Virus record (IMG/VR): IMGVR_UViG_2551306525_000009
Length of the DNA: 36,183 nucleotides
Direction: 5' to 3' (one strand)
Source of the DNA: a virus
Taxonomy: Duplodnaviria > Heunggongvirae > Uroviricota > Caudoviricetes
The position numbers and the translations under genes are program-made. The first letter of the stretch is position 1, and every line of letters starts with the position of its first letter. Shown one piece after another: positions 1-26,284 of this stretch. The notes under the pieces are model-generated. The model saw only the letters and a program-made list of their open reading frames with translations, made no database searches and was not told where the DNA came from.

Positions 1-33
1 AAAGAGTTCCTTTCAAATTTAAATAAGCGTTAA

Positions 34-56
34 GCCCACCACTCTTACTGGTGGGC
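34..56 (-). terminator. stem-loop downstream of the hok-like ORF (GCCCACC-N9-GGTGGGC) followed by an A/T-rich tract on the minus strand
   Basis: perfect 7-bp inverted repeat read directly from sequence; T-rich stretch follows on the reverse complement. Confidence 0.4.
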
Positions 57-135
57 CTCAATTTAAATTTGGGTGCCACTTCGACCATACCCAGGCAACC
101 GATTGACGGGGGATTGCTCCCCCGTCGCGGTTTCC

Positions 136-276
136 TTACTGCTTACACTGTAAGAACGCCGCAAACTCCGCGCCCCAGAAGCTCATCCGTATTTCGCACA
201 GCGAACCATGCAATATCCAGATGATGAGGATTACCGTCACGCAGAACGTGATGGCTGTAAGCGATTTTTGCGACAT
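136..276 (-). CDS. Hok/Gef-family small membrane toxin (type I toxin-antitoxin), 46 aa; not in the ORF track because it is under 60 aa
   Basis: manual translation MSQKSLTAITFCVTVILIIWILHGSLCEIRMSFWGAEFAAFLQCKQ; one TM helix then SLCEIR...AAFLxCK, matching the conserved Hok tail (HokA ends SLCELH...AAFLACK, from memory); AAGGAG 8 nt upstream of ATG. Confidence 0.6.
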   Translation of the reverse strand: MSQKSLTAITFCVTVILIIWILHGSLCEIRMSFWGAEFAAFLQCKQ

Positions 277-466
277 AGCACTTGCTCCTTTTCCGGAGAG
301 GCGCTAACCTTTCACTTGCTTAGGGTAGACGGTTAGGGCCTCGGTTAAACAAAAGTGTTTTCCGGGGCCTTTCCACATCTGGCCTTCGGGTATTCCCTCC
401 GACCATCAGCCGAAAGGCACCCGCGCGTAATCTATCGCTTTTTTGTTACTCCGGCAATTCTGCCTG

Positions 467-727
467 TTAATTCTGAGGTAAAGGCAAACTCATCTGATTG
501 TTTCCCCTGTGTGAAGCTGGCAGCTCATGCCACGGGATACCTTCTGATGAGTGAACGCCGGAGGCGTGTTTCGATGTGAATTTATGGAAGGCTTCCAGTG
601 TTGAGAAGCATACGCCGCATTCCAGGTTGTTACACTGGTAATACTTTTGCCGCACGGTGTTTGAATCATTTTCCGGACGACTGGTGCGGATACGGGCAGA
701 TGCGCCACAAAGCGGACAACGGAACAT
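467..727 (-). CDS. ogr: late gene transcriptional activator Ogr/Delta family (zinc finger)
   Basis: MFRCPLCG...YQCNNLECG matches the Cys4 zinc-finger N-terminus of P2 Ogr / 186 B; position adjacent to D. Confidence 0.85.
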   Translation of the reverse strand: MFRCPLCGASARIRTSRPENDSNTVRQKYYQCNNLECGVCFSTLEAFHKFTSKHASGVHSSEGIPWHELPASHRGNNQMSLPLPQN

Positions 728-769
728 AGCGACCTCCCTTAACGTGGTGCTGCCGCTATTCTAAGTTCT

Positions 770-1870
770 TCACTCTGTTTCCGCTATCCATTCCGGGATT
801 TTTGCCTCAAGCTCAAGCTGCGTGGTAAAGCCGCTGTTATCAATGGTGTGCTCGGCTTTTGCAATAATCCAGTCCTGATTATCAATCTCGCTTTTAAATC
901 CTGTTACCGTGCCATGCATTTCGGGATAGAGTTCTGCGCGTCCACGCGCCAGCGTGATGGAGAATGATGCGGCTCCGCGTTGTAGCTGCTGCCACTTTGC
1001 CGCCGCTGCGCGTCTTGCTGCCTGCTCGTTCTGATAAGTCTTGCGTAACACAAACACATTGCCTTCCGCGCCCTCCATATAATCACCTTCACGGCTGCTG
1101 CTTTTCTCCTTTTTCGGTTTGCGGCGTTTCACGCTGACTTTTTTCTTTTTCCCGTAATTAAGATCAAGCCAGTAGGCGCGTACACCTGTATACGCCTCGC
1201 GGTCAGCAATGCGAAACTGATGGCGATCGCCGCTGCTGCGTGTGATGGCAAACGATGGCAATGGTTTTCCCTGCGCGTTCACGCCACCACCTGGCATAAT
1301 GAATAACAGATTACCGCTTTTTACCGTGGTGATTGCGCCCAGCATTTCCGCCATGCGCGTAAGGAAGGACATGTCACTTTCTTCGGTCTGGTCGGCGTGG
1401 TCGATTTCGATATCCATCAGCATTTCGCTGATTTGCGGTTTCAGACCGTACCGATGAGCGATGGCGGATACCACTCGCTCAACGGTCACATCATGCCAGG
1501 ACACTTCGCGCTTGACGTTAAATTCATCCCGAAAATCTGCGCTTCTGGCTGAAATGGTCAGTCTGTCGGGAGGTCCTTCATGAGCAATTTCATCAACAAT
1601 GTAAGTGCCTTTTTCTGTCAGCGGTTCGCCTTTCCAGCCAATGAGAACCGTCAGGCGAGCGCCCCGTGGCGGCAACTGCAACTGACCATCAGCATCATCC
1701 AGCGTGATGGTGAGCTGGTCTGCTTCAAATCCCCGGTTGTCGGTCAGTGACAGGCTCATCAGGCGCTCTGCCACGCCGGACAGCGTTTTACCCTCGGCGA
1801 GAATATCAAAATCCGGCATTTTCACGGGGTCTGTGCCCTGACTGAGCAATTGCATGGTGGTGTCGGTCAT
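770..1870 (-). CDS. D: tail protein D (late control gene D)
   Basis: similarity to P2 gpD (LSLTDNRGF, RLTISARSADFR, REGDYMEG, TIDNSGFTT blocks); start chosen at internal ATG with GGGAGGGA RBS (ORF track extends to 2002). Confidence 0.85.
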   Translation of the reverse strand: MTDTTMQLLSQGTDPVKMPDFDILAEGKTLSGVAERLMSLSLTDNRGFEADQLTITLDDADGQLQLPPRGARLTVLIGWKGEPLTEKGTYIVDEIAHEGPPDRLTISARSADFRDEFNVKREVSWHDVTVERVVSAIAHRYGLKPQISEMLMDIEIDHADQTEESDMSFLTRMAEMLGAITTVKSGNLLFIMPGGGVNAQGKPLPSFAITRSSGDRHQFRIADREAYTGVRAYWLDLNYGKKKKVSVKRRKPKKEKSSSREGDYMEGAEGNVFVLRKTYQNEQAARRAAAAKWQQLQRGAASFSITLARGRAELYPEMHGTVTGFKSEIDNQDWIIAKAEHTIDNSGFTTQLELEAKIPEWIAETE

Positions 1871-2027
1871 CTGCTCCCTCCCTGTGTGGCATGGTCGCAT
1901 GTGCGTGCGGAGGGGGTTACTGCTTTTTGTTGTCGCCGTGGCGGGAGAACGGCGCAGGGGTGAGATTACGCGCGTGGTGGGTGATGATTGTTGCCGAATC
2001 ATTTAACGGATACAAGGGGCTGAAGCT

Positions 2028-3212
2028 ATGAGTGAAACTCGTTTTCATGGTGCCCGTGTTACGGAAAATACCGACCTGGTAACAGCGATTAACGATGTTG
2101 ATTCCAGCGTTATCGGTATCGTGGCAACGGCGGATGATGCGGACGCGAAGCTGTTCCCGCTGAACAAGCCCACACTGCTGACCCGCGTCAATGACGTGCT
2201 GGGAAAATGCGGAACAACGGGGACGCTTTATCGTGCGCTTAAGGCCATCGCAGACCAGGTGAGCACAAAGGTGATCGTCGTTCGCGTGGCTGAACACAAA
2301 GAAGAAGACGAAAAGACGCAGGATCAACTGGTTATCGGTGGTTCTGAGGATGACGGCAGCTATACGGGGATGTATGCGCTGCTTGTTGCAGAGCAGGATG
2401 AAAGCATCGGATACCGTCCGCGTATTCTGGCCGCGCCGGAGCTGGACACGGAGGCGGTGACAAAATCCCTGTGCGTGATTGCGGGTAAACTGCGCGCATT
2501 TGTGTATGCCTCATGTCACGGCTGTAACACGATGGCTGAAGCGATTACCTACCGCCAGAAATTCAACGAACGTGAAGTGATGCTCTTATGGCCGGACTTC
2601 ATCGCCTACAACCCGAAAAGTGGCGAAAACGAAACGTTCCCCGCGCCTGCTTATGCGTGCGGCCTTCGTGCGTACATTGACCATGAGCAGGGCTGGCACA
2701 AATCGCTGTCCAACGTTCCGGTTAAAAATGTGCTGGGGATGTCGAGGCATGTGTTCTGGTCGTTGCAGGCCGAAGACAGCGATGCCAACAGCCTCAACAA
2801 CAAAGAAATCACGACCATTATTCGTCGCAACGGGTTCCGCTTCTGGGGCAACCGCACACCGGAAACGAACGCCTACATTTTTGAGGTGTATACCCGAACC
2901 GCACAGGTGCTGGCTGATTCAATTGCGGAAGCGCAGTTTGAAACCATCGACAGTCCACTGACGCCTGCGAACGTGAAGGATGTTATCAGTGCCATCAGGG
3001 CAAAACTGGATTCACTGGTGACTGCCGGGAAACTGATTGGCGCGGAGTGCTGGTATGACGTGGTGGATAACAGCACCACGGATTTACGTCAGGGGCGTGT
3101 GCGTATTCGCTACAAATATACGCCCGTTCCGCCACTGGAAGACATGGAGCTTTACCAGACGTTTACTGATGAATACTTTGAACCCGCATTTGCGGTGCTG
3201 GGAGGTGCCTGA
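2028..3212 (+). CDS. FI: contractile tail sheath protein FI
   Basis: 394 aa, size and sequence character of the P2 FI sheath family; followed by the tube gene with ATGA-type overlap. Confidence 0.9.
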   Translation: MSETRFHGARVTENTDLVTAINDVDSSVIGIVATADDADAKLFPLNKPTLLTRVNDVLGKCGTTGTLYRALKAIADQVSTKVIVVRVAEHKEEDEKTQDQLVIGGSEDDGSYTGMYALLVAEQDESIGYRPRILAAPELDTEAVTKSLCVIAGKLRAFVYASCHGCNTMAEAITYRQKFNEREVMLLWPDFIAYNPKSGENETFPAPAYACGLRAYIDHEQGWHKSLSNVPVKNVLGMSRHVFWSLQAEDSDANSLNNKEITTIIRRNGFRFWGNRTPETNAYIFEVYTRTAQVLADSIAEAQFETIDSPLTPANVKDVISAIRAKLDSLVTAGKLIGAECWYDVVDNSTTDLRQGRVRIRYKYTPVPPLEDMELYQTFTDEYFEPAFAVLGGA

Positions 3213-3724
3213 TGGCTGTGCCAAAACATCTTCGCTTTTTTACGCTGTTTGTGGATGGTGAAAACGAAGTGGGTAAGGTGACGTCCGTCACTCTGCCCAA
3301 ACTGACGCGCAAAACCGACAGCTACCGGGGTGGTGGCATGATGGGGGCGGTAAGTATTGATCTCGGTCTGGACGACTCCGCGCTTGATGCGAGCTTTGTC
3401 ATGGGGGGCGCAGTTCGTGAGCTGTTCCTTAAGTATGGCGGCACGATTGACGGCACGCTGCTGCGTTTTGCGGGTGAATACTACACCGATGCAGAAAGCG
3501 ACCTGTATGAAGTCGAAATGCGCGGACGTGTGACGGAAATTGATATGGGGGAAGCCAAACAGGGCGAAGCCACATCACACACTTACGCCATTAAAAACAC
3601 CTACTACAAGCTGAGTGTTAACGATCGTCCGTTGTGGGAGATTGACCTGCTGAACTTCATTTACCGGAAGGACGGCAAGGACATTGTGCCCGATCGCATC
3701 CGTTCCGCGCTTGGGCTTGGCTGA
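3212..3724 (+). CDS. FII: tail tube protein FII
   Basis: 170 aa, immediately downstream of sheath; P2 FII-like. Confidence 0.85.
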   Translation: MAVPKHLRFFTLFVDGENEVGKVTSVTLPKLTRKTDSYRGGGMMGAVSIDLGLDDSALDASFVMGGAVRELFLKYGGTIDGTLLRFAGEYYTDAESDLYEVEMRGRVTEIDMGEAKQGEATSHTYAIKNTYYKLSVNDRPLWEIDLLNFIYRKDGKDIVPDRIRSALGLG

Positions 3725-3778
3725 TAAGTAATATGCAGGCGGCGCAGTGCGTCGCCTCTGACTGAAAGGAGTTTCCTG

Positions 3779-4144
3779 ATGAAAGAGACGAAAAACATCG
3801 ATACCGAAAACACGGTAGTTGCTGACACTGTGAAAGAAACCAGTGAGCGTGGCGTAAAACTTACCCAACCCATTGAGCGAGGCGGCGAAAAAATCATGTA
3901 TGTGGAGATCACCGGGGCTATTGAGCAGGCTGGATCTCTGCGAGATTTGTCGCTGTCTGATGTGCTGAATCTGAAAGCGGAATCCATGTTTACGCTGCTG
4001 TCACGCGTGACATCACCGCGACTGGATGAAGTGACGATCAAAAAAATGGCATCCCGTGACTTTATTCAGTTATGTGTGGTTGCCGTAAATTTTTTGAGCG
4101 GTGCGGACTCTGGCGGGAAGAACGAACAGGCGACGGAAGCCTGA
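3779..4144 (+). CDS. E: tail assembly chaperone E
   Basis: 121 aa ORF between tube and tape measure; contains slippery heptamer near its 3' end. Confidence 0.8.
   Translation: MKETKNIDTENTVVADTVKETSERGVKLTQPIERGGEKIMYVEITGAIEQAGSLRDLSLSDVLNLKAESMFTLLSRVTSPRLDEVTIKKMASRDFIQLCVVAVNFLSGADSGGKNEQATEA
4090..4096 (+). other. programmed -1 ribosomal frameshift slippery heptamer T_TTT_TTG
   Basis: heptamer in the zero frame of E (codons TTT TTG); the -1 frame stays open to 4308. Confidence 0.7.
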
Positions 4145-4308
4145 TCACGGTTGTGTGCTTTGAGCACATAGAAGACTTTGTGGCAGATATTGCCGTTATT
4201 TTTAACTGGTCGCCCGCCGAAATCTTCATGATGACGCCCGGCGAAGTGGTTAGCTGGCGTGAGCGGGCGGCACTTCGCAGCGGGAATGCAGACAATGAAG
4301 ACTCTTGA
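4095..4308 (+). CDS. E': E' extension of the E+E' frameshift product (tail assembly chaperone fusion)
   Basis: -1 frame from slippery site translates ERCGLWREERTGDG...NEDS, equal to the ORF-track 4072..4308 frame; conserved E/E' (lambda G/GT-like) arrangement. Confidence 0.7.
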
Positions 4309-7102
4309 TATCCGGGTCGCTTTCAGCGCCGTTGACAGGCTGACCCGACCTGCCGAAAACGCCCGCCGCCTGATGGGGCAGTTTGGTGACTCCATCCAGC
4401 GAACGCAGGGGGCGATCAAAAATCTCGAGCGTCAGGCGCGTTCATTTGAGCGCGCCCGCGACGCTGTCAGTAAAGCGGATGCGGGTATCGTGAAAGCGCG
4501 ACGCCAGCTTAACGCCCTTAATCAGTTACAACGCACGGGTACAGTGCTCAGCGAAAAACAACAAAAGCTGATGCAGCAGTTAAGCACCCGGCTTGAACGC
4601 CTGAATGAATCGCGCACACGGGAAATTCAGAAAATGCGGGAGCTTGGCGGAGAGCTGAAACGCCACGGCATTTCCCTGACAGGCAGCGATAACACCATCC
4701 AGCAGGCCATCAGACGCACCGAACAGTACAACAACCAGCTTGAACGCGAACGGCAGGCGCTTGCGCGTGTAACGCGGGCGCGTGAGCGGTATTCGCGCGT
4801 GCAGGAAACCGCGGGAAAACTGAAAACAGGTGGTGCGCTGGCAATTGGTGCGGCAGCGGCTGGCGGCTATGCTGCCGGGCGTTTTTTGCAGCCTGCGATC
4901 GGGTTCGGCAAAGAGATGTCCCGCGTTCAGGCACTGACGCGAATCGACCAGAACAGCCCGCAGTTTAAGGCGCTGCGTGAGCAGGCGTTAAAACTTGGCT
5001 CTGAAACGCAGTTCACCGCAGGCGATGCCGCCAGTGGGCAGGCATTTCTTGCAATGGCTGGCTTCACTCCGCAGGCCATTCAGGCTGCGCTTCCCGGCGT
5101 GCTGAGCATGGCAACGGCTGGCGGCATGGATCTCGGCGAGACGGCGGATATTGGCTCAAATATCCTGACGCAGTTCGGCCTTTCTGCTGACCAGATGGAC
5201 CGGGTCGGTGACACACTCACCGCAGCGTTTACCCGTACCAACACTGACCTTCGCGCACTGGGCGAAACCATGAAATATGCAGGTCCGGTTGCGGGTAAGC
5301 TGGGAATATCGCTGGAGCAGGCCGCAGCGATGGCTGGCGTGCTGGCGAATATGGGCATCAGAGGGAGTGATGCCGGGACGGCAATGCGTGCCAGCCTGGC
5401 TCGTCTGGCATCACCGCCAAAGGCAGCAGCAGAGGCGCTGAAAGAGCTTGGTGTGGCAGTCTCTGACGCGAACGGCAAAATGCGCCCGATGGAGGATGTG
5501 CTGGCCGACCTTTATAAAGCCACCCGCAAATACGGGGAAGTTGACCGGGTATCGTTCTTTAAGGACATTGCCGGGGAAGAGGCTTTCACATCGTTTATGG
5601 CGCTCGTTGATGCAGCGGGTGACGGTTCCTTACCTAAACTGAGAAAAGAACTTGAAGGCGCGCGCGGTGAGGCTGAACGCACAGCAAAGGTCATGGCCAA
5701 CAACCTTGACGGCGATCTGAAATCACTCGGCAGTGCATGGGAAGGGTTGCGCATCCGCATTGCAGATCTGATTGACGGTCCGCTGCGTTCTGTCACGCAG
5801 TGGCTCACGCGGGTGGTATCAAGGGTGACGGCGCTGGCGCAGGCCCATCCGGCACTGACGCGCCAGCTACTGATAGCAGGCGGTGCGTTGCTGGCAATGA
5901 CTGCAACGGTTGGCTCGTTGTCGCTGGCTATTGGTGTGCTTGCTGGTCCGCTGGCAAAACTGCGTCTTGGTTTTTCTCTCCTGACCGGATCAATGAATGC
6001 TGTCAGGGTCCTGCCAGCACTATGGGGAATGGTGACGGGTTCCGTTTCTTTACTGGGAGGCGCTATCGGGGCGCTGTTCAGCCCGGTTGGTCTTATCGTG
6101 GCTGCGCTTGCCGGAGCTGCCGTCCTTATCTGGAAATACTGGGATCCCATCAGGGCATTTTTTGCCGGGGTGTTCAGCGGGATTATGGAAAGGCTGACCC
6201 CGTTGCGCGAAACCTTTGAACGGTTTGGTCCTGTTTTTGACGCAATCGGAAGCGGGATAAGCCAGGTGTTTAACTGGTTTAAATCGCTGCTGTCACCGAT
6301 GGAGTCCAGCAAGGAAACGCTGGATAAATGTACCAGTGCTGGCGAGATATTCGGTAACGTTCTTGGCGGTGCGTTACAACTTGTTCTGACACCTGCAAAA
6401 ATGTTGCTGGATACGCTGGCGTGGATACTTGAAAAGCTCGGTGTGCTTCCGGATGAAGCGGAAAGGGCGCGCAAGAAAATCGAAGACGCACAGCGTGCGG
6501 CCATTCTTCAGGACAAGGTTGCCTGGCTTCAGGGGGACCTGGCGAAAATCAATCCGCCGAAGCCTGTGGAAAATGGCAATGGCACCGGAGGTGATAAACC
6601 CAAAGACAACAAACCACTCACAGACAGCAATACCGGTACGCTACGCAGACTCAGCAAAATTGCTGATAACACAGGTAAGCTGGTTGATGAGACGAAAAAA
6701 CGCATTGGCCCCGGCGATATTGTCTTTAAGAACCTGCCCCGCGCACTTGCTGTTCGTGGGGAGTGGCAGGAGCGGAAGATTGCGCAGGTCAGTAAGCCTG
6801 CTTCCGCAATCAATATCACACCCGTGGTCCAGACTCCTCTTCCTCCGGCGCTGGTCCCTGTTGTTGCGGCCAGCTCCCGCCCGGTGGCGGAGGCCATACG
6901 ATCGCCAGTGGCATCAGTTCCTGCAACTTCCCGTAACCGGGAGCCTGTTGTCTCCGGATTTGGCGGTGAAATTCATGTTCATCTGCATAACGTTGTTACG
7001 CAGAATCCCCGCGAACTGGCGAAACTGGTCGGTGAAATGGTCAGGGCAGAGGTGGAACGGCGTGCTCGTGCCGGACGTGGCAGTTTTTACGATAAAGATT
7101 GA
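4286..7102 (+). CDS. T: tail tape measure protein T
   Basis: ~940 aa, coiled-coil N-terminal region, hydrophobic Gly/Ala-rich central segment; between E' and U; start uncertain (GTG 4259, ATG 4286 or 4295). Confidence 0.85.
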   Translation: MQTMKTLDIRVAFSAVDRLTRPAENARRLMGQFGDSIQRTQGAIKNLERQARSFERARDAVSKADAGIVKARRQLNALNQLQRTGTVLSEKQQKLMQQLSTRLERLNESRTREIQKMRELGGELKRHGISLTGSDNTIQQAIRRTEQYNNQLERERQALARVTRARERYSRVQETAGKLKTGGALAIGAAAAGGYAAGRFLQPAIGFGKEMSRVQALTRIDQNSPQFKALREQALKLGSETQFTAGDAASGQAFLAMAGFTPQAIQAALPGVLSMATAGGMDLGETADIGSNILTQFGLSADQMDRVGDTLTAAFTRTNTDLRALGETMKYAGPVAGKLGISLEQAAAMAGVLANMGIRGSDAGTAMRASLARLASPPKAAAEALKELGVAVSDANGKMRPMEDVLADLYKATRKYGEVDRVSFFKDIAGEEAFTSFMALVDAAGDGSLPKLRKELEGARGEAERTAKVMANNLDGDLKSLGSAWEGLRIRIADLIDGPLRSVTQWLTRVVSRVTALAQAHPALTRQLLIAGGALLAMTATVGSLSLAIGVLAGPLAKLRLGFSLLTGSMNAVRVLPALWGMVTGSVSLLGGAIGALFSPVGLIVAALAGAAVLIWKYWDPIRAFFAGVFSGIMERLTPLRETFERFGPVFDAIGSGISQVFNWFKSLLSPMESSKETLDKCTSAGEIFGNVLGGALQLVLTPAKMLLDTLAWILEKLGVLPDEAERARKKIEDAQRAAILQDKVAWLQGDLAKINPPKPVENGNGTGGDKPKDNKPLTDSNTGTLRRLSKIADNTGKLVDETKKRIGPGDIVFKNLPRALAVRGEWQERKIAQVSKPASAINITPVVQTPLPPALVPVVAASSRPVAEAIRSPVASVPATSRNREPVVSGFGGEIHVHLHNVVTQNPRELAKLVGEMVRAEVERRARAGRGSFYDKD

Positions 7103-7108
7103 GGAGTC

Positions 7109-7603
7109 ATGGCCATGATGATGATCTACGGCATGTTTGTTTTTGAGCTGCGCACATTGCCGCATCAGCAGTTACAGCAAAACAAAAGCTGGCGGCATGT
7201 GAAAAATGAGCGCGTAAACCGCTCAGCAAGCTGGCAGTATATCGGTGCAGGTGATGATCGCATCGTGCTTTCTGGCGTGCTTTATCCTGAAATTACAGGT
7301 GGCGAAGTGTCGCTTTCGCTGCTGACCACGCAGGCATATACAGGACGCCCCTGGCCTCTGATTGATGGTGTCGGGCAGATTTACGGCATGTATGTACTGA
7401 CTGAAACGAATACGACCCGCTCCGAGTTTGATCGCTACGGTAAGGCGAAAAAGATAGAGTTTTCACTGACTCTTGAACGCTGTGATGAGGATTTGCGGGA
7501 GCGCCTGCAATCCTCATCGTTCAGTGATATGCTGTCCGGCTTCAAAGATAAGGTCACATCATCCCTTAACAGCGCGGCCAGCTCCGTTAAAGGGCTGTTT
7601 TGA
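7109..7603 (+). CDS. U: tail protein U
   Basis: similarity to P2 gpU (LSGVLYPEITGG, WPLIDG..IYGMYV, KIEFSLTLER blocks). Confidence 0.85.
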   Translation: MAMMMIYGMFVFELRTLPHQQLQQNKSWRHVKNERVNRSASWQYIGAGDDRIVLSGVLYPEITGGEVSLSLLTTQAYTGRPWPLIDGVGQIYGMYVLTETNTTRSEFDRYGKAKKIEFSLTLERCDEDLRERLQSSSFSDMLSGFKDKVTSSLNSAASSVKGLF

Positions 7604-7610
7604 TTAACGC

Positions 7611-7640
7611 AAAACCGCTAATGGTCAGATTAGCGGTTTT
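7611..7640. terminator. bidirectional rho-independent terminator between U and the invertase (AAAACCGCTAAT-ggtcag-ATTAGCGGTTTT)
   Basis: perfect 12-bp stem with 6-nt loop, T-run on plus strand; overlaps the invertase 3' end. Confidence 0.65.
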
Positions 7641-8230
7641 CATTTTCCTGAGTCTGCCTGGTTGTTTCTTCAGCCTGTATATCGCCTACAGGGTGATAAC
7701 GATAAATCGTCGATATGCCGATGTCGTAAATGATCGCCAGTTGTTTCCTGTCATGACCGTTTTTGATCAGCCTTGCTATTTGCTCATGCTGTTCTTTTGT
7801 CAGCTTCGGGCGACGTCCGCCTGTGCGCCCCCCGTGCGCGCGCTGCCGCCAGTCCGGCCAGTGTACGTTCAACAATTAATTCACGTTCCATTTCAGCCAG
7901 GGCACCCATAACGTGGAAGAAAAAACGCCCCATTGGAGAAGATGTATCTATGCTGTCGGTCAGACTGCGAAAATTAATCCCTCGCTCCCGTAGTTCCCCG
8001 ACGAGAGAAATCAGATGTTTCATGCTTCGCCCGAGGCGATCCAGTTTCCAGACAACCAGCGTGTCACCTTTTTGAAGCCGCTTTAAAGCGCGTTTTAATC
8101 CCGGTCGGTCTGTCTTTGTCCCGCTTAATTTATCTTCAAATATTTGTTCACATCCTGCGCAAACAAGAGCGTTTCGTTGCAGGTCTGTATTCTGGTCATT
8201 TGTTGATATCCTTACATAACCAATCAGCAC
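7630..8230 (-). pseudogene. Hin/Gin/Cin-family serine DNA invertase, reading frame broken by a +1 shift in a G6 tract (plus-strand C run 7828-7833)
   Basis: ORF 7784..8230 encodes the catalytic domain (GYVRISTNDQ...) and ORF 7630..7875 encodes the HTH C-terminus (GGRRPKL...IIYDIGISTIYR) in another frame; removing one G restores ARG-RTGGRRPKL. Confidence 0.8.
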
Positions 8231-8284
8231 ACTGAATCTCCCGTCCCAAAGCGCAAATCATGCCATGCAGGCCGGAAACGGCCA

Positions 8285-8312
8285 TTATCTAAAACCTCGG
8301 TTTGCAGGAAAC
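8285..8312 (+). repeat. left inversion crossover site (gix/hix-like) TTATCTAAAACCTCGGTTTGCAGGAAAC
   Basis: 26/28 match to the inverted copy at 11235-11262; resembles Gin/Hin crossover sites (from memory). Confidence 0.75.
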
Positions 8313-9198
8313 AGTAAACAAGGCTGGTAACGCCGTTCAGCGTTCCGGCGATAAAATGACCGGAGAGCTGAAAATTGGCACGGTGAATGCGCTGCGAATT
8401 TTCAATGATGCCTTCGGTCTTATTTTCCGTCGTTCAGAAGATTTTCTTCATTTCATTCCGACGGCTGAAGGACAAGGCGAAAACGGTGATATCGGCCCAT
8501 TAAGGCCATTCGCTATAAATCTGAGAACAGGTGCTATATCTGTCAGCCACGGGGCCAAAATTGAAGGAGGTCTAGCTATTGGAGCTACTGATAACGCACT
8601 GGGTGAAAACTCCATTGTTCTGGGAGATAACGACACCGGATTTAGGCAAGATGGAGATGGTATTATTAGCTTCTATTCAAATGGTTCGCGCATCGGACAT
8701 ATTGATGAGTTAGGGTTACATATTTATAAAGATATTGAATCTAATGGCAGCAATTTTAGATTAAAAGGTAATTACCGCCACCACATTACATTCGCCAACG
8801 AAGACGGAAGTATTCGTATGTTTTTGTGGAAAGATAAAGATGGTGATGGTGTTCATATTAATAATGGTTCAAGCGGTGGCGGTGATTTCGTTTTTAAAAC
8901 AGATGGGGGATTTGCGCTGGGAAGTGGTGCGCAAGTTGCGTCTAATGGCGATATTTATGGTTCAGTGTGGGAAAACAACTGGTTAAGCACATGGCTGCAT
9001 AATCATGTCGTTCGGGATATTCGTCTTGGCAGCATTGAATATAAAAACGTATGGCGCGACTCCGGCTTTGGCGATGCGTCAGGTTATGTTTTAACAGCCG
9101 CAATTAACAGCAATGCGGATGATATTGTCGACACTGTTGCCAGAAGGCCAATTCAGAAATTGATTGGGGGAATATGGTATAACGTGGGGAGTGTTTAA
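8302..9198 (+). CDS. alternative tail fibre C-terminal cassette (Sv'-like), no own start codon in the current orientation
   Basis: frame open through left gix site; begins LGLQETVNK..., same junction as H (LGLQETVNQ); C-terminus [19 protein letters not shown] parallels the H C-terminus. Confidence 0.75.
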
Positions 9199-9199
9199 G

Positions 9200-9727
9200 A
9201 TGATGCACCTGAAAAATATTAAGGCCGGGAATCCGAAAACACCGGAACAATACCAGCTAACTAAAAAAGCGGGCGTGGTATGGCTCTTTTGTGAAGATGG
9301 CAAAAACTGGTATGAGGAACAAAAGAATTTTCAGCCAGACACCATAAAAATTGCTTACGATGAGAACAACATCATCGTTGCTGTCAGTAAAGACGTTTCA
9401 ACTATTAATCCTGAAGGGCTAAGCATAGTTGAAGTTCCTGATATTACGGCAAATCGTCGCGCAGACAATAACGGAAAATGGATGTTTCTGGATGGTAAAG
9501 TAGTAAAGAGGGAATATACAGAACAGGAACTGCAACAACAGGCCGAATCACAAAAGGCCGCATTGCTTTCCGAAGCTGAATCAGTCATCCAGCCGCTGGA
9601 ACGCGCTGTCAGGCTGAATATGGCAACAGACGAGGAACGCACACGACTGGAAGCATGGGAACGCTACAGTGTTCTGGTCAGCCGTGTGGATACGGCAAAT
9701 CCTGAATGGCCACAAAAGCCTGAATAA
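9200..9727 (+). CDS. alternative tail fibre assembly chaperone (Tfa')
   Basis: [14 protein letters not shown]... paralogous to the Tfa at 9756..10289; ATG 1 nt after the Sv' stop. Confidence 0.8.
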
Positions 9728-9732
9728 AAATT

Positions 9733-9752
9733 AAGGCCCGATATCGGGCCTT
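9733..9752. terminator. bidirectional hairpin between the convergent tfa genes (AAGGCCCGAT/ATCGGGCCTT)
   Basis: perfect 20-bp palindrome read directly. Confidence 0.6.
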
Positions 9753-9755
9753 CTC

Positions 9756-10289
9756 TCATTCTGGTTGTTCGGGAAACGTTACTGGCAGGCTGGAAGTGTC
9801 TGTAGATTCGACTTTCTGCGCAAAGAGCATCCACTCTGTTAATTTTTGTTTATTCTCGTCGGAAATGATGCCCAGCCGTAGCTGTGAGTCCCATAGCTGG
9901 GTTTTATCCCTGACAAGTTGCAACAGGCTTTGCTTTTCATTTTCCGCTTGTTGCCTCTGCTCTTCCTCGGTACAAGTTCGCTTTATCACTACGCCATCTT
10001 TGAACATCCATTTCCCCGAAATATCAGCCCGGCGATTTGCTGTAATATCAGGTAATTCAACGACGCTTGCCCCCTCTGGATTAATTGCTGAAACATCCTT
10101 TTCAATGCAAATAATAACGCCGTTATGGTCATAGACCATTTTCAAAGTGTCTGGCTGGAAATTCTTTTGTTCCTCATACCAGTTTTTTCCATCATCTGAA
10201 TAAAGCCACTTAATGTTAAATTGCTTTGTTAGCTGGTACTGCTCCACTGTTTTAGGATTACCAGCGGTAATGTTTTTTAAGTGCATCAT
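9756..10289 (-). CDS. G: tail fibre assembly chaperone
   Basis: 177 aa, MMHLKNITAGNPKTVEQYQLT...; immediately downstream of the fibre gene. Confidence 0.85.
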   Translation of the reverse strand: MMHLKNITAGNPKTVEQYQLTKQFNIKWLYSDDGKNWYEEQKNFQPDTLKMVYDHNGVIICIEKDVSAINPEGASVVELPDITANRRADISGKWMFKDGVVIKRTCTEEEQRQQAENEKQSLLQLVRDKTQLWDSQLRLGIISDENKQKLTEWMLFAQKVESTDTSSLPVTFPEQPE

Positions 10290-10291
10290 AA

Positions 10292-12394
10292 TTAAATACT
10301 TCCCGCGTTATACCAAGTCCCATTAATGCAATACTGAATTGGCCTTGCCTGAGTTGTATCAATTAATTCATCACGGTTTCCGTTAACTGAACCCGTAACG
10401 ACATAACCTGACCTGTCAGACCAGCCGGGACCATTCCATGTCTGAACAGATGACAGACCGCCAAGGCGAATACCTGTAATAAACCTTGAGTTACATTCTG
10501 CCTGCGTATATGCACCAACATCTCCCGCAGAGGGTTTGCGGGTTGTGGTGTAAAACTCTGACCAGTCAGCTTCAAAGCCATAACCATCACGCGCTGAACG
10601 ATAAAAGATACCGCCATTTCTGTAATTCACGCGGAACTGTGCAGCAGGGCAACTCCCCGTATTCATATTGAAGTGGAGGATTAATGTCGATGCGCCACCA
10701 ATATTTGCGTTATAGACCCCGCTATTCCAGTTCCAGCCAACAGCTTTATCATTTCCGACAGTGCTTCCTGTTTGCCCTAAAGCAAATGCAGGTTGTTGAT
10801 TTTTCGTGTTGTAGTCTCGTCGCCAGCCAGGAGCATAAGCATCACCATGATTAATATAAGTGAATTGAGCGTTAGTAATTCCGCCACCGCTGGACGTGCT
10901 CGGCGTAGTAACGCGTATGGTCATTGCGCCGCGAGTGCCAATAACTTCCACCACAGCACCTGCAAGACAAATATTTCCGCAACCTGTATCTGTAATGACC
11001 TTATTATTTGCATAAGCCCATGAGCCTTTGCACATCCAGTAAGGATGGTTAAATGCTCCCTGACTCTCCAGCCACGAAATAAATTGCGCGGTTGTCCAGA
11101 CCTGACTATCGCCACCAATATTCAGCCATGAGCTATATGCGCGGCAGGCACCAATATTTTTGGTGAAGGTATCTTTTCCTGGAATATCTGCGCCGTTCTG
11201 GTTTTTCTGTAATGCGCCAGAAGCCTGATTTACCGTTTCCTGCAAACCGAGGTATTCGATAACGGCAGCAACGTTCGATTTCGCAAGAATATCCCGCCCG
11301 ACTTTTGTCAGGGTTGCCAGGCTGGCGACATCATTCCCCGTAAAATACGGAAACTTGTCTGCCGCAGTAGCAAGCCCGGCCAGCGCCGTCAGGGTGGCAT
11401 CTTTCGGTTGCTTACCCGCAAGCGCGTTAGTCATGGTGGTCGCAAAATTCGGGTCGTTGCCCAGCGCCGCCGCCAGCTCGTTCAGCGTGTTCAGTGCGTC
11501 AGGTGAAGAGTCTACAAGTGCGGCAATCGCGGCCATAACGAAAGCCGTGCTTGCGATTTGGGTATTATTCGTTCCCTGTTGTGCAGTTGGTGTTGTTGGC
11601 GTTCCGGTCAGTGCCGGGCTGTTTAATGGGGCTTTCTTGTTCGTTTCATCCATTACCGCCTTAACTGCTTTTGGTGTCGCTGCCAGCGTTTCAGACGTGC
11701 TGTTGGTTGCACTGCTGAGCTGGACTATCCCTTTTCGTGCCGTCGTGGCGTCCTGAGCGGTATATTTTCCGTTAGCCAGGTCATACGCGGCCTTAACCGC
11801 TTTCGGCGTTGCGGCCAGCGTTTCAGAATCGCTGTTAGTGGCGCTACTGAGTTGAACAAAGCCTTTTGCGGTCAGCGAGGCGTCCGGGTGACGTCGTGAC
11901 TGTTCATGCTCTTTCAGTTTGTCATCCACGTAATCCACTGTGGCCATCACCATGGTGTTATCCACGGTAAGCGCCACGGTGGCAGTGCTGGATACGGTCA
12001 GAATGGTGCGAAATGTTTGTGCACGACCGGACCCTTCGGCAACGGCTGGCTTGTAACTTTCGGCAGTATTGCCCACCGCGATTAAATCGCCGTGCTCATC
12101 AAATACACCAATTTCCCGGATCCAGAATCCGCCCGTTTCAGGAGGAATAACCAGCTCCGCAATAATGCGGTTCTGATGTGTTGCGTCCAGGATGACGCGA
12201 TTAACAGTGTGTCGCCACACCTCATGCACCAGACGGGTCTGCTTACTGTCTGGTGTGGGCAACGTGCCGCCACCGTCGCCCACGGCCATATGAGTCAGGC
12301 GGACAGGCTTACCATCTGGCGCGGCTGCCTGAGCTAATTTTTTTGCACCCGTATCGGTGATAACGGTTTTAAATTTTCGTGTTGTGGTACTCAT
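10292..12394 (-). CDS. H: tail fibre protein (constant N-terminal part fused to the currently expressed variable C-terminal part)
   Basis: 700 aa; gix-like site embedded at the constant/variable junction (11235-11262). Confidence 0.85.
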   Translation of the reverse strand: MSTTTRKFKTVITDTGAKKLAQAAAPDGKPVRLTHMAVGDGGGTLPTPDSKQTRLVHEVWRHTVNRVILDATHQNRIIAELVIPPETGGFWIREIGVFDEHGDLIAVGNTAESYKPAVAEGSGRAQTFRTILTVSSTATVALTVDNTMVMATVDYVDDKLKEHEQSRRHPDASLTAKGFVQLSSATNSDSETLAATPKAVKAAYDLANGKYTAQDATTARKGIVQLSSATNSTSETLAATPKAVKAVMDETNKKAPLNSPALTGTPTTPTAQQGTNNTQIASTAFVMAAIAALVDSSPDALNTLNELAAALGNDPNFATTMTNALAGKQPKDATLTALAGLATAADKFPYFTGNDVASLATLTKVGRDILAKSNVAAVIEYLGLQETVNQASGALQKNQNGADIPGKDTFTKNIGACRAYSSWLNIGGDSQVWTTAQFISWLESQGAFNHPYWMCKGSWAYANNKVITDTGCGNICLAGAVVEVIGTRGAMTIRVTTPSTSSGGGITNAQFTYINHGDAYAPGWRRDYNTKNQQPAFALGQTGSTVGNDKAVGWNWNSGVYNANIGGASTLILHFNMNTGSCPAAQFRVNYRNGGIFYRSARDGYGFEADWSEFYTTTRKPSAGDVGAYTQAECNSRFITGIRLGGLSSVQTWNGPGWSDRSGYVVTGSVNGNRDELIDTTQARPIQYCINGTWYNAGSI
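11235..11262 (-). repeat. right inversion crossover site (gix/hix-like), reverse complement TTATCGAATACCTCGGTTTGCAGGAAAC
   Basis: inverted copy of the site at 8285-8312; lies inside the H reading frame at LGLQETVN. Confidence 0.75.
11658..11867. repeat. imperfect tandem duplication (period ~132 bp, 44 aa) within the constant part of the fibre gene
   Basis: GCCTTAAC(T/C)GCTTT...CCAGCGTTTCAGA... occurs twice; encodes the repeated VQLSSATNS.SETLAATPKAVKA motif. Confidence 0.6.
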
Positions 12395-12396
12395 GC

Positions 12397-12927
12397 TTAA
12401 TCGTCCGGATAAATGGTAATAACTTCACCGTCATAAGTTGCCGCCGCTGCGAAAATATCCCCCGGAATTTCCTGAATGATATTCAGCCCTGTCATGTGGC
12501 GGCTGACCGGACGGGCATCAGCAATCAACCGCTCCATTTCCAGATACATTTCCTCCGTCACGCCACTGTCCAGTGTGCCGACTTCAACGGTAAATGTTCC
12601 CGGTTCTCCGCCGAACTCCCACCACTCAGACACGCGAATGAGGTATCCCAGCGGCTCAATGGCCCTGCGCAGTGCGCTGATGGTCCCTTTGTGTCGGTGT
12701 ATCAGCCATGCATCACGAATCACCTGTCGCTTTGTCTCTTCCGGCCAGTTGCGATCCCAGCGGTCAACGGAAAACGCCCAGGCGAGATAAGGCAGCAGAT
12801 GCACCGGGCAGGTGTCCGGCGACCACAGCGTGTTGAGGTCTACCGGAATGTCTGTAATGCGTGTTCCGACGGCTTCGGCACAACGCATGAAATTGCTGGC
12901 TGATGGTGGTAACAACGAATTACTCAT
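12397..12927 (-). CDS. I: baseplate protein I
   Basis: similarity to P2 gpI (LLPPSAS, WLAWAFSVDRWD, HKGTI, MERLIADA blocks); start at internal ATG 12927 (ORF track 12960). Confidence 0.8.
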   Translation of the reverse strand: MSNSLLPPSASNFMRCAEAVGTRITDIPVDLNTLWSPDTCPVHLLPYLAWAFSVDRWDRNWPEETKRQVIRDAWLIHRHKGTISALRRAIEPLGYLIRVSEWWEFGGEPGTFTVEVGTLDSGVTEEMYLEMERLIADARPVSRHMTGLNIIQEIPGDIFAAAATYDGEVITIYPDD

Positions 12928-13819: not shown

Positions 13820-14170
13820 TTACTCCCTCAGCGTGATGGTTAATTCAACATTCTGCATGGTCTGCATGACAGTGCCCGACAGCGTCACCCCGGCGCGGCC
13901 TCCCGCTTTCCAGACAACGTCGATGGCATCCAGGGCAATGCGGGGTTCCCATCGTGTCAGCGCAATCACGGCAGCACTCATGCATTGCAGACGCGTGGTG
14001 TTATTCATGGGTTCGTCAATCAAATCAGGCACAAGGCTGCCATATTCCCGTCGCATAACCCGGCTTGCCAGCGGGGTGGTCAGGATATCCCTGACTGACT
14101 GTTTCAGGTGCTCCATATCGTTCAGGTTTCCCGTCCCGTCCGGATTCATTCCTGTGTAGCGGGTTGTCAC
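13820..14170 (-). CDS. W: baseplate wedge protein W
   Basis: 116 aa; RVMRREYGSL block as in P2 gpW. Confidence 0.8.
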   Translation of the reverse strand: MTTRYTGMNPDGTGNLNDMEHLKQSVRDILTTPLASRVMRREYGSLVPDLIDEPMNNTTRLQCMSAAVIALTRWEPRIALDAIDVVWKAGGRAGVTLSGTVMQTMQNVELTITLRE

Positions 14171-14748
14171 TGCGGGCCTCCTGTCGAATCGCTGCCGCCT
14201 TTCACGCCACCGTGTTTATGCGTATGCACGGTAATGCCGTTTGAGGTGAAGTTGCCGCCGCTGTGCGTGATATTGCCGCTCATCTTTCCTCCTTTTGTGA
14301 CGTCAAGCGTCGCCGTTCTCAGAAGGTTTGTGCATTCCACGACGGGCGTATCCAGTTTCACGCTGACGGATGCCTGTAAAGTGGCCGTTTTCATGCCGCT
14401 GGCGCTCAGTGCGCCTGCGTCCGCGTCGTAGCGGAACACCGCGCCGTCCGGCGCGCTGATCACGATTTCTTTCAGGCTTTTGCCGGGTGCCGGATTGGCA
14501 TCACTCCACAGGCTGCCAATTATCATGGCGGTTTCCGGGTTGCCGCCAATGCAGGCAATTGCCACCTGTTCGCCTGGTGATGGCGGCAGCCACACATTGA
14601 AGGCTCCCGCGCGCGTGGTGTTCCAGCGCAACCAGCCTGTTTCCAGTTCGCCGCTGCGAACGCGCACGCACCAGGATTCCTCATCAACTTCAGAGATGAT
14701 CCCGGTGCGGATGATGTTGCTCAGCAGTCGCATGAGTTCTGCGCTCAC
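14167..14748 (-). CDS. V: baseplate assembly / spike protein V
   Basis: 193 aa; P2 gpV-like N-terminus (RTGII.E, W..RAG, P.GEQV). Confidence 0.8.
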   Translation of the reverse strand: MSAELMRLLSNIIRTGIISEVDEESWCVRVRSGELETGWLRWNTTRAGAFNVWLPPSPGEQVAIACIGGNPETAMIIGSLWSDANPAPGKSLKEIVISAPDGAVFRYDADAGALSASGMKTATLQASVSVKLDTPVVECTNLLRTATLDVTKGGKMSGNITHSGGNFTSNGITVHTHKHGGVKGGSDSTGGPQ

Positions 14749-15389
14749 CGTACAGCCTCCGCAATCCGGCCCAGCACCGTGTTATAAATCAGGCGCTCAT
14801 CTGCCTGACTGATGCCCAACAGCTCACGTACCGGGTAATCGGTGAAAATGCCCGGCGCAACCTGATCGCGCTCACCGAACTGATGAACGCGTGCAATACG
14901 TGCGGCCACGCCGCTGTAACCCACCGTCACACCGGAAGCATCTGCACGGGCTTTCAGGTAGCGGGCGGTGCGCAGTTTTACGAACATGGGGACGCGCTTT
15001 GTGCTGTCCTGGTTGATGCGTCGGGTGCGTATTTCCAGAAAACGGTCGATGTCATCCCGGTAAAACGTGCGGATATTGTTTTTATCCTCATCCCACCCGG
15101 TAATGGTTCGCCCGTATTTCCCCGTGTCGTGATGCCAGTTTTTCAGCGTGCGTGCTTCGTTATTCCAGATAAAGCGAATGCGTTCCTGTATCCGGGTTAC
15201 GCGGCGTCTGCGTGGTGTCCATGCGGTTCCGTCCGGCGCTTTCTGTGACCGGATACGCGCCTGCTGGGCGCGGCGTAAATCCTGTGCCAGCTTTCTGGCG
15301 ATGTTATTGATGGCCTGCTGATTCAGGCTGTCGCGGATGGCCTCAAAGGTTTCATCCACGCGGGTGAATGCCTTATCCATCGCTTTCAC
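14745..15389 (-). CDS. S: tail completion / virion morphogenesis protein S
   Basis: position between R and V; start may be internal. Confidence 0.65.
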   Translation of the reverse strand: MKAMDKAFTRVDETFEAIRDSLNQQAINNIARKLAQDLRRAQQARIRSQKAPDGTAWTPRRRRVTRIQERIRFIWNNEARTLKNWHHDTGKYGRTITGWDEDKNNIRTFYRDDIDRFLEIRTRRINQDSTKRVPMFVKLRTARYLKARADASGVTVGYSGVAARIARVHQFGERDQVAPGIFTDYPVRELLGISQADERLIYNTVLGRIAEAVR

Positions 15390-20650: not shown

Positions 20651-20804
20651 AGTTTTTGCCCCTCTGACTGGTTCTTCTGTCATGATGGCAAAGCGTAACA
20701 GGCTGATACAAAGGGCTTTTGTTGTAAGAAAACGGCCAGAACAGGGGGTTAAGGAGAACAGTTTCGCGCGCGGGTAATCTTCCTGTAATTACTCAGGGGG
20801 AGCA

Positions 20805-25885: not shown

Positions 25886-26221
25886 TCATTCATGCGTTTT
25901 TTCTTCATGGTCTGTCACTTCTCCCCTGATAATTTCATTGCACAAATCCACGCACTCATTGCAGATGTAAACAGACGGTCCGGCAATCACCTTTATGACT
26001 TCGTGCTGGGATTTATTGCAGAAGCTGCAATAAATCGTCTTCTTGCCTGAAGTCCATGTTTTGCTGATTTCGCCAGACATCAGTTGCTTGATGTCTTTTT
26101 CACGACGAAGAACTATCTGGCCACATTCAGCTATTTTTTGGATGTTGACATTTTCTTCTTTCGCCAGCGCTTCCATTCGCTCAATCAGTCGCTGCGCTTT
26201 TTCTCTGTCAATGTGTTGCAT
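25886..26221 (-). CDS. small protein with ClpX-type C4 zinc-binding domain (ZBD) at its C-terminus
   Basis: [39 protein letters not shown] is near-identical to the E. coli ClpX N-terminal ZBD ([39 protein letters not shown], from memory); GGGGG RBS. Confidence 0.8.
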
Positions 26222-26279: not shown

Positions 26280-26284
26280 TTGTG

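What the first reader, a model, noticed from the sequence alone, without database searches (positions are those of the whole stretch)
1871..7640. Tail sheath-tube-chaperone-tape measure-U block inverted relative to canonical P2 order
In P2 the genes FI, FII, E, T, U, D and ogr form one co-directional block downstream of G. Here D and ogr keep the expected strand, but FI to U read on the opposite strand, diverging from D across a 157-bp intergenic region and converging on the invertase at a bidirectional terminator. This implies an ancestral inversion of ~5.7 kb and divergent late promoters between D and FI.
Basis: partly seen in the sequence, partly recalled or inferred. Interest (0 to 1): 0.4.

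Follow-up and report, generated by a model that had tools for sequence, protein, structure and literature searches.

The report
Inverted tail-gene block, normal for P88-like phages
The tail sheath-to-U gene block really is flipped relative to phage P2, but this is the fixed, ancient and very common layout of the whole P88-like group of P2-related prophages, so it is ordinary rather than a peculiarity of this genome.

Summary
D (770-1870) and ogr (467-727) lie on the minus strand with the other late genes. FI, FII, E/E', T and U (2028-7603) lie on the plus strand. They diverge from D across a 157-bp spacer and converge on a DNA invertase at a hairpin terminator (7611-7640).

It is neither a misassembly nor a private event. 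The window is about 95% identical to Escherichia phage P88 (Xuanwuvirus), which is annotated with the same layout. The D-FI junction is contiguous in 1355 of 5426 complete E. coli genomes. All 122 informative related loci, with D 63-99% identical and from more than 20 Enterobacterales genera, share the layout. So does a Reginaelenavirus phage.

U-D adjacency is kept in 389 other phage records and is ancestral. FI-U are as diverged from P2 as their neighbours, which favours an in-place inversion in the clade ancestor. No inverted repeats or gix sites flank the block.

The spacer holds one conserved dyad, TGTTGT-N12-AGAACG (1928-1951). It lies midway between two -10-like elements in a 98-bp core of near-invariant length, the geometry of P2's shared PP/PO Ogr site. 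I infer a bidirectional Ogr-dependent late promoter; this is untested.

Already known; low interest.

The parts
467..727 (-). ogr-type late activator gene (86 aa, Ogr/Delta zinc finger)
   Evidence: Pfam Ogr_Delta 5e-14. 36-42% identity to P2 Ogr, depending on the aligned span.
770..1870 (-). gene D (tail/baseplate hub, 366 aa), kept in the canonical orientation
   Evidence: Pfam Phage_GPD. 50-51% identical to P2 D. Same start as the P88 annotation.
1871..2027 (.). 157-bp divergent D-FI control region
   Evidence: Sequence. Alignment of 112 distinct homologous spacers.
1928..1951 (.). Ogr-type dyad TGTTGT-N12-AGAACG, centre 1939.5, predicted shared activator site
   Evidence: The exact pattern TGTTGT-N12-AGAAC occurs only here and in the O-P spacer. 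With one mismatch allowed there are 4 sites in the window against 0.53 expected in shuffles. TTGT is invariant in the 39-spacer alignment, and TTGTTGT is the conservation peak across 112 spacers. Same form as the P2 PF and PP/PO sites.
1983..1988 (+). predicted -10 element of the FI promoter (GATGAT; GATTAT in most relatives)
   Evidence: Fixed spacing of 49 nt after TGTTGT in 105 of 112 spacers (50 nt in the other 7); high information content. It begins 43.5 bp from the dyad centre.
1891..1896 (-). predicted -10 element of the D promoter (GACCAT preceded by TG; AATCAT or AACTAT in relatives)
   Evidence: Fixed spacing of 31 nt before TGTTGT in 91 of 112 spacers. It mirrors the FI -10 at 43.5 bp from the dyad centre.
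2028..3212 (+). FI tail sheath gene (inverted block begins)
   Evidence: Pfam sheath domains. 46% identical to P2 FI.
3212..3724 (+). FII tail tube gene
   Evidence: Pfam Phage_tube 7.5e-47.
3779..4308 (+). E and E+E' tail chaperone genes, with -1 slippery site TTTTTTG at 4090-4096
   Evidence: 32% identical to P2 E. Slippery heptamer read in the sequence. P88 annotates both products.
4259..7102 (+). T tape measure gene (P88-equivalent start at 4295)
   Evidence: Pfam PhageMin_Tail 2e-58. 33% identical to P2 T.
7109..7603 (+). U tail gene (inverted block ends)
   Evidence: Pfam Phage_P2_GpU 5.5e-39.
7611..7640 (.). bidirectional intrinsic terminator hairpin between U and the invertase
   Evidence: Terminator scan. 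Folds on both strands with z about -4.2.
7630..8230 (-). Gin/Cin/Hin-type DNA invertase outside the inverted block, co-directional with H, G and D; frameshifted here
   Evidence: Resolvase and HTH_7 domains fall in two ORFs. There is one extra G in a G-run relative to P88.
20720..20743 (.). comparator: the same dyad (TGTTGT-N12-AGAACA) in the divergent O-P spacer
   Evidence: -10-like TAATCT and CCATCA lie at the same +/-43.5 bp positions, giving a 98-bp core.

Best explanation
The window is a P88-like (Xuanwuvirus-type, Peduoviridae) prophage. In the common ancestor of this clade the FI-FII-E/E'-T-U segment, together with its upstream late promoter region, was inverted in place. One breakpoint lay upstream of the PF activator site and the other in the tight U/D junction. 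The inversion is fixed, not switchable.

It split the P2 'F operon' into two units: FI-U, ending at a bidirectional terminator shared with the neighbouring invertase or cargo slot, and D-ogr. It also placed D next to the upstream face of the old FI promoter.

A single Ogr-binding dyad at 1928-1951 now sits midway between two -10-like elements. I infer that it activates transcription in both directions, as the one mapped activator site does for the divergent PP and PO promoters of P2. The phage would then have two bidirectional late control regions, P|O and D|FI.

Shown: gene identities, the inversion, its clade-wide fixation, the absence of flanking repeats, and the conserved motif with its spacing. 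Inferred: Ogr binding, the two start sites (about 1884 and 1995), and the in-place single-event history.
For: Layout and homology.

Same layout elsewhere:
- annotated P88 and Citrobacter phage Shae_phiSM; P88 is chemically inducible and lytic on E. coli strains, and PhiSM is described as an active temperate phage (PMC6456863; PMC5285337)
- junction contiguous at 95-99% identity in 1355 of 5426 complete E. coli genomes
- 122 of 122 informative loci from genome and viral collections are inverted, with D 63-99% identical
- Reginaelenavirus Kp4860-2 is inverted too, with FI 68%, U 62%, D 71% and Q 69% identity, so the block co-diverged with the rest of the genome

Canonical U-D adjacency holds in 389 phage records. 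One of them, Yersinia phage YenM_201.16, has an invertase co-directional with FI.

Divergence from canonical genera is uniform across the block and its flanks.

There is no third gix site and no significant inverted repeat at the block ends.

Promoter evidence:
- the dyad occurs only in the D-FI and O-P spacers
- the core between the two -10 blocks is 98-99 bp in 104 of 112 distinct spacers, while the leaders vary by more than 10 bp
- P2 annotates one activator site (3057-3087) for start sites 3016 and 3127, 111 bp apart, which matches the predicted geometry here
- the P2 late promoter consensus TGT-N12-ACA is quoted in PMC3931495, and TGTTGT-N13-ACAACA in Ralstonia P2-like phages in PMC5694545
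Against: - No transcript mapping or Ogr-binding data exist for this clade in the literature I could search.
- The right half-site in this window (AGAACG) is a weak match to ACA, and the D-side -10 (GACCAT) is poor.
- The predicted D leader is only about 14 nt.
- 8 of 112 spacers show a 95-bp core. This may be an alignment effect, or it may be real.
- The in-place inversion cannot be told apart by sequence from a two-step rearrangement with the same end result.
Confidence: 0.85

Rival explanations
1. Misassembly or a private rearrangement of this one genome.
For: None found.
Against: Both junctions are contiguous in hundreds to more than a thousand complete E. coli genomes. They are also contiguous in independently sequenced phages P88, Shae_phiSM, PhiR44_2 and Chuche, and in 122 loci from other genera.
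Confidence: 0.01
2. The FI-U block is a programmed invertible segment flipped by the adjacent Gin/Cin-type invertase, and this window shows one of two states.
For: An invertase gene abuts the block. The phage does have a real invertible tail-fibre segment with gix-like sites at 8285-8310 and 11237-11262.
Against: No gix-like site within 3 mismatches lies near 1871-2027 or 7604-7640. The only inverted repeat at the block ends is a 17-nt, 82% match inside coding sequence. None of 122 relatives shows the other orientation, including many that lack the invertase. A flip would also separate FI from its promoter.
Confidence: 0.02
3. Module replacement: a foreign sheath-to-U cassette from another myovirus lineage was inserted in reverse orientation, rather than the resident block being inverted.
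For: Tail modules are exchanged among phages. E and T are more diverged from P2 (32-33%) than D is (50-51%).
Against: FI, FII and U are 42-51% identical to three canonical Peduoviridae genera, the same range as Q, P, V, W, J and D. Against Reginaelenavirus the block tracks the flanks (62-69% against 68-71%). E and T are the fastest-evolving genes in every comparison. The FI promoter keeps the phage's own dyad type, identical in form to the O-P site.
Confidence: 0.07
It is expressed instead from an independent constitutive or early promoter, or by other means.
For: The D-side -10 is weak in this window. A sigma-70-like site exists further downstream at 907-878(-) inside D, but that could only serve ogr.
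Against: The D-side block keeps a fixed distance to the dyad in 91 of 112 spacers and mirrors the FI -10. The same 98-bp geometry is seen at O-P here and at P2 PP/PO. D is a structural late protein that must be made together with the tail.
Confidence: 0.2

Closest known systems
Escherichia phage P88 (Xuanwuvirus P88, NC_026014 / KP063541) and Citrobacter phage Shae_phiSM
   Same: 94-96% nucleotide identity over the aligned parts of 1-12500. Gene order and strands are identical for D | FI FII E E' T U | invertase | invertible fibre segment | G H. Both are described in the literature as active temperate phages: P88 inducible, PhiSM spontaneously active.
   Different: The invertase here carries a 1-bp frameshift. 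The tail-fibre variable parts and left-end cargo differ. ogr is not annotated in the P88 RefSeq record, and the labels are shifted in the Shae_phiSM record.
Bacteriophage P2 F operon (FI FII E E' T U D, promoter PF) with downstream ogr
   Same: Same seven genes, with the E/E' TTTTTTG frameshift, at 32-51% protein identity. ogr lies directly after D next to the attachment end. An Ogr-type dyad lies about 88 bp upstream of the FI start codon, against 83 bp in P2.
   Different: FI-U are inverted, so D is no longer downstream of U and cannot be transcribed from PF. U ends at a terminator instead of overlapping D.
P2 divergent PP/PO late promoters sharing one Ogr activator site
   Same: One dyad (TGTTGT-N12-CCATCC in P2) lies midway between divergently transcribed genes. 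The mapped P2 start sites are 111 bp apart, 55.5 bp on each side of the dyad centre. The window's D-FI and O-P spacers have the same dyad form, with -10-like elements in a 98-bp core.
   Different: In P2 this architecture serves only P and O. Here a second copy of the architecture serves D and FI. Function here is inferred, not mapped.
Rearranged late operons in other P2-like phages (e.g. Stenotrophomonas phage Smp131)
   Same: Late tail genes are redistributed between Ogr-type promoter units, with TGT-N12-ACA-like sites retained, and PP'/PO' lie on one palindromic site (PMC3931495).
   Different: In Smp131 genes are exchanged between co-directional operons. That is not an inversion separating U from D.
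Reginaelenavirus (Klebsiella phage Kp4860-2 / 3LV2017 species)
   Same: Same inverted FI-U block with divergent D.
   Different: A different ICTV genus, at 45-71% protein identity. No invertase was found at the junction in that record.

Membership tests
P2-type tail 'F operon' (Peduoviridae) | Homologues of FI, FII, E/E', T, U and D present together | tested here: met
   Pfam. tblastn to P2 gives 32-51% identity.
P2-type tail 'F operon' (Peduoviridae) | -1 programmed frameshift E/E' at TTTTTTG | tested here: met
   TTTTTTG at 4090-4096, with the E' frame open to 4308. Frameshifting itself was not assayed.
P2-type tail 'F operon' (Peduoviridae) | FI through D co-directional, with U immediately followed by D, in one transcription unit | tested here: not met
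   FI-U are on the plus strand and D on the minus strand. U ends at a terminator 5.7 kb from D.
P2-type tail 'F operon' (Peduoviridae) | Ogr/Delta zinc-finger activator gene downstream of D | tested here: met
   Ogr_Delta 5e-14 at 467-727(-), 42 bp after the D stop codon.
P88-like clade (Xuanwuvirus and relatives) | High nucleotide identity to P88 | tested here: met
   95.6% identity over 79% of 1-12500. Whole-genome identity was not computed.
P88-like clade (Xuanwuvirus and relatives) | Layout ...H G [cargo] U< T< E< FII< FI< >D >ogr | tested here: met
   P88 annotation. 122 of 122 relatives.
Gin/Cin/Hin-type programmed invertible segment (considered for the FI-U block) | 26-bp crossover sites in inverted orientation at both ends | tested here: not met
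   Only two gix-like sites are present, and both flank the fibre segment at 8285-11262. There are no meaningful inverted repeats at the block ends.
Gin/Cin/Hin-type programmed invertible segment (considered for the FI-U block) | Both orientations present among close relatives or in populations | tested here: not met
   None of 122 loci is canonical. Read-level data are not available.
P2 PP/PO-type bidirectional Ogr-dependent late promoter | Single TGT-N12-ACA-type dyad between divergent late genes | tested here: met
   TGTTGT-N12-AGAACG at 1928-1951. It is conserved (TTGT invariant in the 39-spacer alignment; conservation peak across 112 spacers) and is often TGTTGT-N12-ACAACC in relatives.
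P2 PP/PO-type bidirectional Ogr-dependent late promoter | Transcription starts about 55 bp on each side of the dyad centre | not testable with these tools
   Only -10-like elements at +/-43.5 bp with near-invariant spacing could be shown. 5' end mapping is needed.
P2 PP/PO-type bidirectional Ogr-dependent late promoter | Activation requires Ogr | not testable with these tools
   Requires reporter or in vitro transcription assays.

The most novel reading that the evidence does not exclude
The inversion turned a unidirectional Ogr-dependent promoter (PF) into a second bidirectional one. The P88-like clade would then run all late genes from just two symmetric dyads, P|O and D|FI. This would be a natural example of an operon being split and its orphaned gene rescued by the back side of a symmetric class-I-type activator site. 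I found no description of this in the literature I searched.
Probability: 0.6. Interest if true: 0.3.

Novelty: already known. Interest (0 to 1): 0.15.

Why it matters
Practically, it matters for annotation and prophage quality control. The flipped sheath-to-U block is a reliable signature of the P88-like clade (Xuanwuvirus, Reginaelenavirus and relatives). About a quarter of complete E. coli genomes carry it, so it should not be flagged as an assembly error or as degradation.

Biologically, it is a tidy case of how a fixed inversion rewires a well-studied late-gene regulatory circuit. It splits the P2 F operon and probably reuses one symmetric Ogr site in both directions. That is a modest, testable point about promoter evolution, not a new kind of system.

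Tried and rejected
- **Third gix/cix-like site.** I searched for a site that could make the FI-U block invertase-dependent. Only the two fibre-segment sites were found.
- **Inverted repeats at the block ends.** I found only a 17-nt, 82% match inside coding sequence, which I take as chance.
- **Strict TGT-N12-ACA scan of the window.** It gave three hits, none in late spacers. The functional-looking motif is the longer, degenerate TGTTGT-N12-A(G/C)A(A/C)C.
- **Sigma-70 consensus scan.** It found no promoter in the D-FI spacer, as expected for activator-dependent late promoters.
- **Literature.** Searches for Xuanwuvirus, phage P88 and Peduoviridae plus inversion found no paper that discusses the arrangement. 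One preprint notes reversible inversion of the P88 tail-fibre segment only.
- **Intermediate lineages.** The alignment-based scan of viral contigs returned only clade members with D at least 63% identical. The 52-63% gap, where an intermediate lineage might sit, was sampled only through the phage collection.
Full report
**What is there.** The window is a complete P2-like prophage. ORF listing and Pfam scans identify the following:
- ogr at 467-727(-)
- D at 770-1870(-)
- FI at 2028-3212(+)
- FII at 3212-3724(+)
- E at 3779-4144(+)
- T at 4259/4295-7102(+)
- U at 7109-7603(+)
- a serine invertase at 7630-8230(-)

E has a TTTTTTG slippery site at 4090-4096 that leads into E'. The D-FI spacer is 1871-2027, 157 bp. 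U and the invertase converge on a hairpin at 7611-7640 that folds as a terminator on both strands.

tblastn of all P2 proteins (P2 record fetched) shows that the window is a reverse-complemented P2 map from int to ogr. Every late gene is collinear with P2. The only exceptions are FI, FII, E, T and U, which are flipped as one block in place.

**Is it an artefact or a rarity? No.**
- The first 12.5 kb are 94-96% identical to Escherichia phage P88 (Xuanwuvirus), P884B11, 520873, 503458, PhiR44_2, Chuche and Citrobacter phage Shae_phiSM. Single alignment pieces run straight across both junctions.
- The P88 and Shae_phiSM annotations show the same strands.
- P88 is a chemically inducible phage able to lyse many E. 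coli strains, and PhiSM is described as an active temperate phage (PMC6456863; PMC5285337).
- A 1.2-kb probe across the D-FI junction is contiguous in 1355 of 5426 complete E. coli genomes, mostly at 95-99% identity.
- The probe across the U-invertase junction is contiguous in 621 genomes, with partial matches in more. Many relatives lack the invertase.

**How far does the layout extend?**
- A scan of one genome per species with the D protein returned 47 loci from more than 20 Enterobacterales genera, with D 65-98% identical. The genera include Salmonella, Citrobacter, Enterobacter, Klebsiella, Raoultella, Kosakonia, Kluyvera, Serratia, Edwardsiella, Pantoea, Erwinia, Brenneria, Pectobacterium, Symbiopectobacterium and Rouxiella.
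- A scan of IMG/VR returned 80 more loci, with D 63-99% identical.
- Classifying them by tblastn with the window's proteins gave the order J I H (G) [invertase] U< T< E< FII< FI< >D >ogr in every locus long enough to judge. All 80 viral loci, and 122 of 122 overall, have this order.
- The Klebsiella phage Kp4860-2, of the genus Reginaelenavirus, has the same inversion.
- A chimeric U+D protein query can only be covered by one place if U and D are adjacent and co-directional. It was covered by at least 80% in 389 of 526 matching phage records. These include Peduovirus, Dagavirus, Duonihilunusvirus and PSP3, phages of Burkholderia, Ralstonia, Pseudomonas, Mannheimia, Vibrio and Xanthomonas, and even a Microcystis phage.
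- The roughly 49 records with a best place above 60% identity are the candidates for the inverted clade. In the five of them listed, only D was covered and U lay at a second place.

U-D adjacency is therefore ancestral. The flipped block is a derived character of one clade, separated from canonical phages by a gap in D identity: at least 63% inside the clade against about 52% or less outside it.

**In-place inversion or foreign cassette?** Against three canonical genera, FI (46-49%), FII (42-48%) and U (42-51%) are as diverged as Q, P, V, W, J and D (41-55%). Against Reginaelenavirus the block (62-69%) tracks the flanks (68-71%). E and T are lower everywhere, as expected for fast-evolving genes. 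This uniformity favours one in-place inversion before the Xuanwuvirus-Reginaelenavirus split.

The canonical Yersinia phage YenM_201.16 has an invertase between the fibre segment and FI, co-directional with FI. In the window the invertase is co-directional with H, G and D, so it lies outside the inverted segment.

**Is the block switchable? No.** The only gix-like sites (TTATCTAAAACCTCGGTTTGCAGGAA, up to 3 mismatches allowed) are at 8285-8310 and 11237-11262. They flank the Mu/P1-like tail-fibre segment. No meaningful inverted repeat brackets 1871-7640. No relative shows the other orientation.

**How the split operon is probably expressed.** P2 late promoters carry an Ogr site of the type TGT-N12-ACA (PMC3931495). 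A longer form, TGTTGT-N13-ACAACA, is reported in Ralstonia P2-like phages (PMC5694545). The P2 record annotates a single activator site (3057-3087) for the divergent PP and PO promoters. Their mapped start sites, 3016 and 3127, lie 55.5 bp on either side of the dyad centre.

In the window, the exact pattern TGTTGT-N12-AGAAC occurs only twice: in the D-FI spacer (1928-1950) and in the O-P spacer (20720-20742). With one mismatch allowed there are 4 sites, against 0.53 expected in shuffles.

I aligned the D-FI spacer from 39 distinct loci, and then from 112:
- TTGT is invariant in the 39-spacer alignment, and TTGTTGT is the conservation peak across the 112.
- The right half-site is often ACAACC.
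- A GAtTAT -10-like block lies at a fixed 49 nt to the right of TGTTGT in 105 of 112 spacers.
- A block that reads TG-n-AATCAT or AACTAT on the D strand lies at a fixed 31 nt to the left in 91 of 112.
- The core between the two blocks is 98-99 bp in 104 of 112 spacers. The leaders on either side vary by more than 10 bp.

In window coordinates the two -10-like hexamers are 1983-1988(+) and 1896-1891(-). Each begins 43.5 bp from the dyad centre at 1939.5. The O-P spacer has TAATCT and CCATCA at the equivalent positions, again a 98-bp core. The P2 PP/PO start sites, 111 bp apart, imply the same core length.

I therefore infer that the inversion carried the old PF region with it and left D facing the back of a symmetric activator site. 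That site would now drive FI-U rightward from about 1995 and D(-ogr) leftward from about 1884. S and V overlap in this phage, so there seems to be no separate PV promoter. All late genes may then depend on two bidirectional control regions. These promoter assignments are sequence inference only. The D-side -10 in this window (GACCAT) is weak and its leader would be only about 14 nt.

**Comparison and novelty.** The closest known entity is phage P88 itself, and the arrangement is present in its public annotation and in that of several other deposited phages. It differs from the textbook P2 F operon in one defining feature, FI-to-D co-directionality with U-D adjacency, which was tested and not met. 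It resembles P2's PP/PO control region in architecture.

I found no paper that discusses the inversion or the D-FI promoter. The layout is nonetheless the documented norm for a named genus, so I rate it already known and of low interest. The one mildly new reading is the bidirectional reuse of the Ogr site (probability about 0.6).

**Verdict.** The interpretation of an ancestral inversion with divergent late promoters is supported. The event is ancient, fixed and extremely common, so it is neither a misassembly nor a peculiarity of this genome.

Noticed in passing
window 7630-8230 (-), frameshift near 7826-7832: The Gin/Cin/Hin-type invertase is split into a Resolvase-domain ORF (7784-8230) and an HTH_7 ORF (7630-7875). 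The cause is one extra G in a G-run relative to P88. It could be a pseudogene that locks the fibre segment, or a homopolymer sequencing error.
   Followed up: partly
window 8285-11262: Invertible tail-fibre segment bounded by gix-like 26-bp sites (8285-8310 and 11237-11262). It carries alternative fibre tip and assembly genes (8302-9198 and 9164-9727 on the plus strand; 9756-10289 and the 3' end of H on the minus strand). It is 91-93% identical in DNA to the G/C segments of Mu, D108, P7 and RCS47, and its GC content is lower (about 0.45).
   Followed up: partly
window 136-276 (-): 46-aa Hok/Gef family toxin ORF (Pfam 7.7e-07) just beyond ogr at the prophage end. The P88 annotation calls it 'MokW-like host killing'.
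   Followed up: partly
window 26285-27560 (-): ParM/StbA actin-like segregation ATPase (2e-82) followed by a StbB-type plasmid stability protein (4e-24), inside an integrase-bearing P2-like prophage. This hints at a plasmid-like maintenance option or a stabilisation module.
   Followed up: no
window 24145-24525 (-), 25886-26221 (-), 31520-32350 (-): Cargo-like genes in the low-GC region after Q and in the early region: a YafO-family type II toxin (2e-27), a protein with a ClpX C4 zinc finger (1e-17), and an SPFH/Band 7 protein (8e-31).
   Followed up: no
window 26278-26300 (+): A third dyad-like site, TGTTGT-N12-ATAAC (one mismatch to the late-promoter pattern), lies between the stbB-like gene and the ClpX-zinc-finger gene. 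It could be chance or an Ogr-responsive promoter for cargo.
   Followed up: no
window 14745-14748: S (14745-15389) and V (14167-14748) overlap, with no spacer. P2 has orf30, a terminator and the PV promoter between these two genes. The head-to-fibre late genes may therefore form one long operon in this clade.
   Followed up: no
L001 (P88 RefSeq) and L002 (Shae_phiSM): Public annotations are imperfect. ogr is not annotated in the P88 RefSeq record. In Shae_phiSM the D gene is labelled 'ogr' and the sheath gene is labelled 'late control gene D'. This may hide the arrangement from casual inspection.
   Followed up: no
L004 (Vagococcus sp. WN89Y contig) and L046 (Planococcaceae MAG): Near-identical (97-98% D) P88-like prophage sequence appears in assemblies labelled as Firmicutes. 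This most likely reflects contamination of those assemblies with enterobacterial DNA.
   Followed up: no
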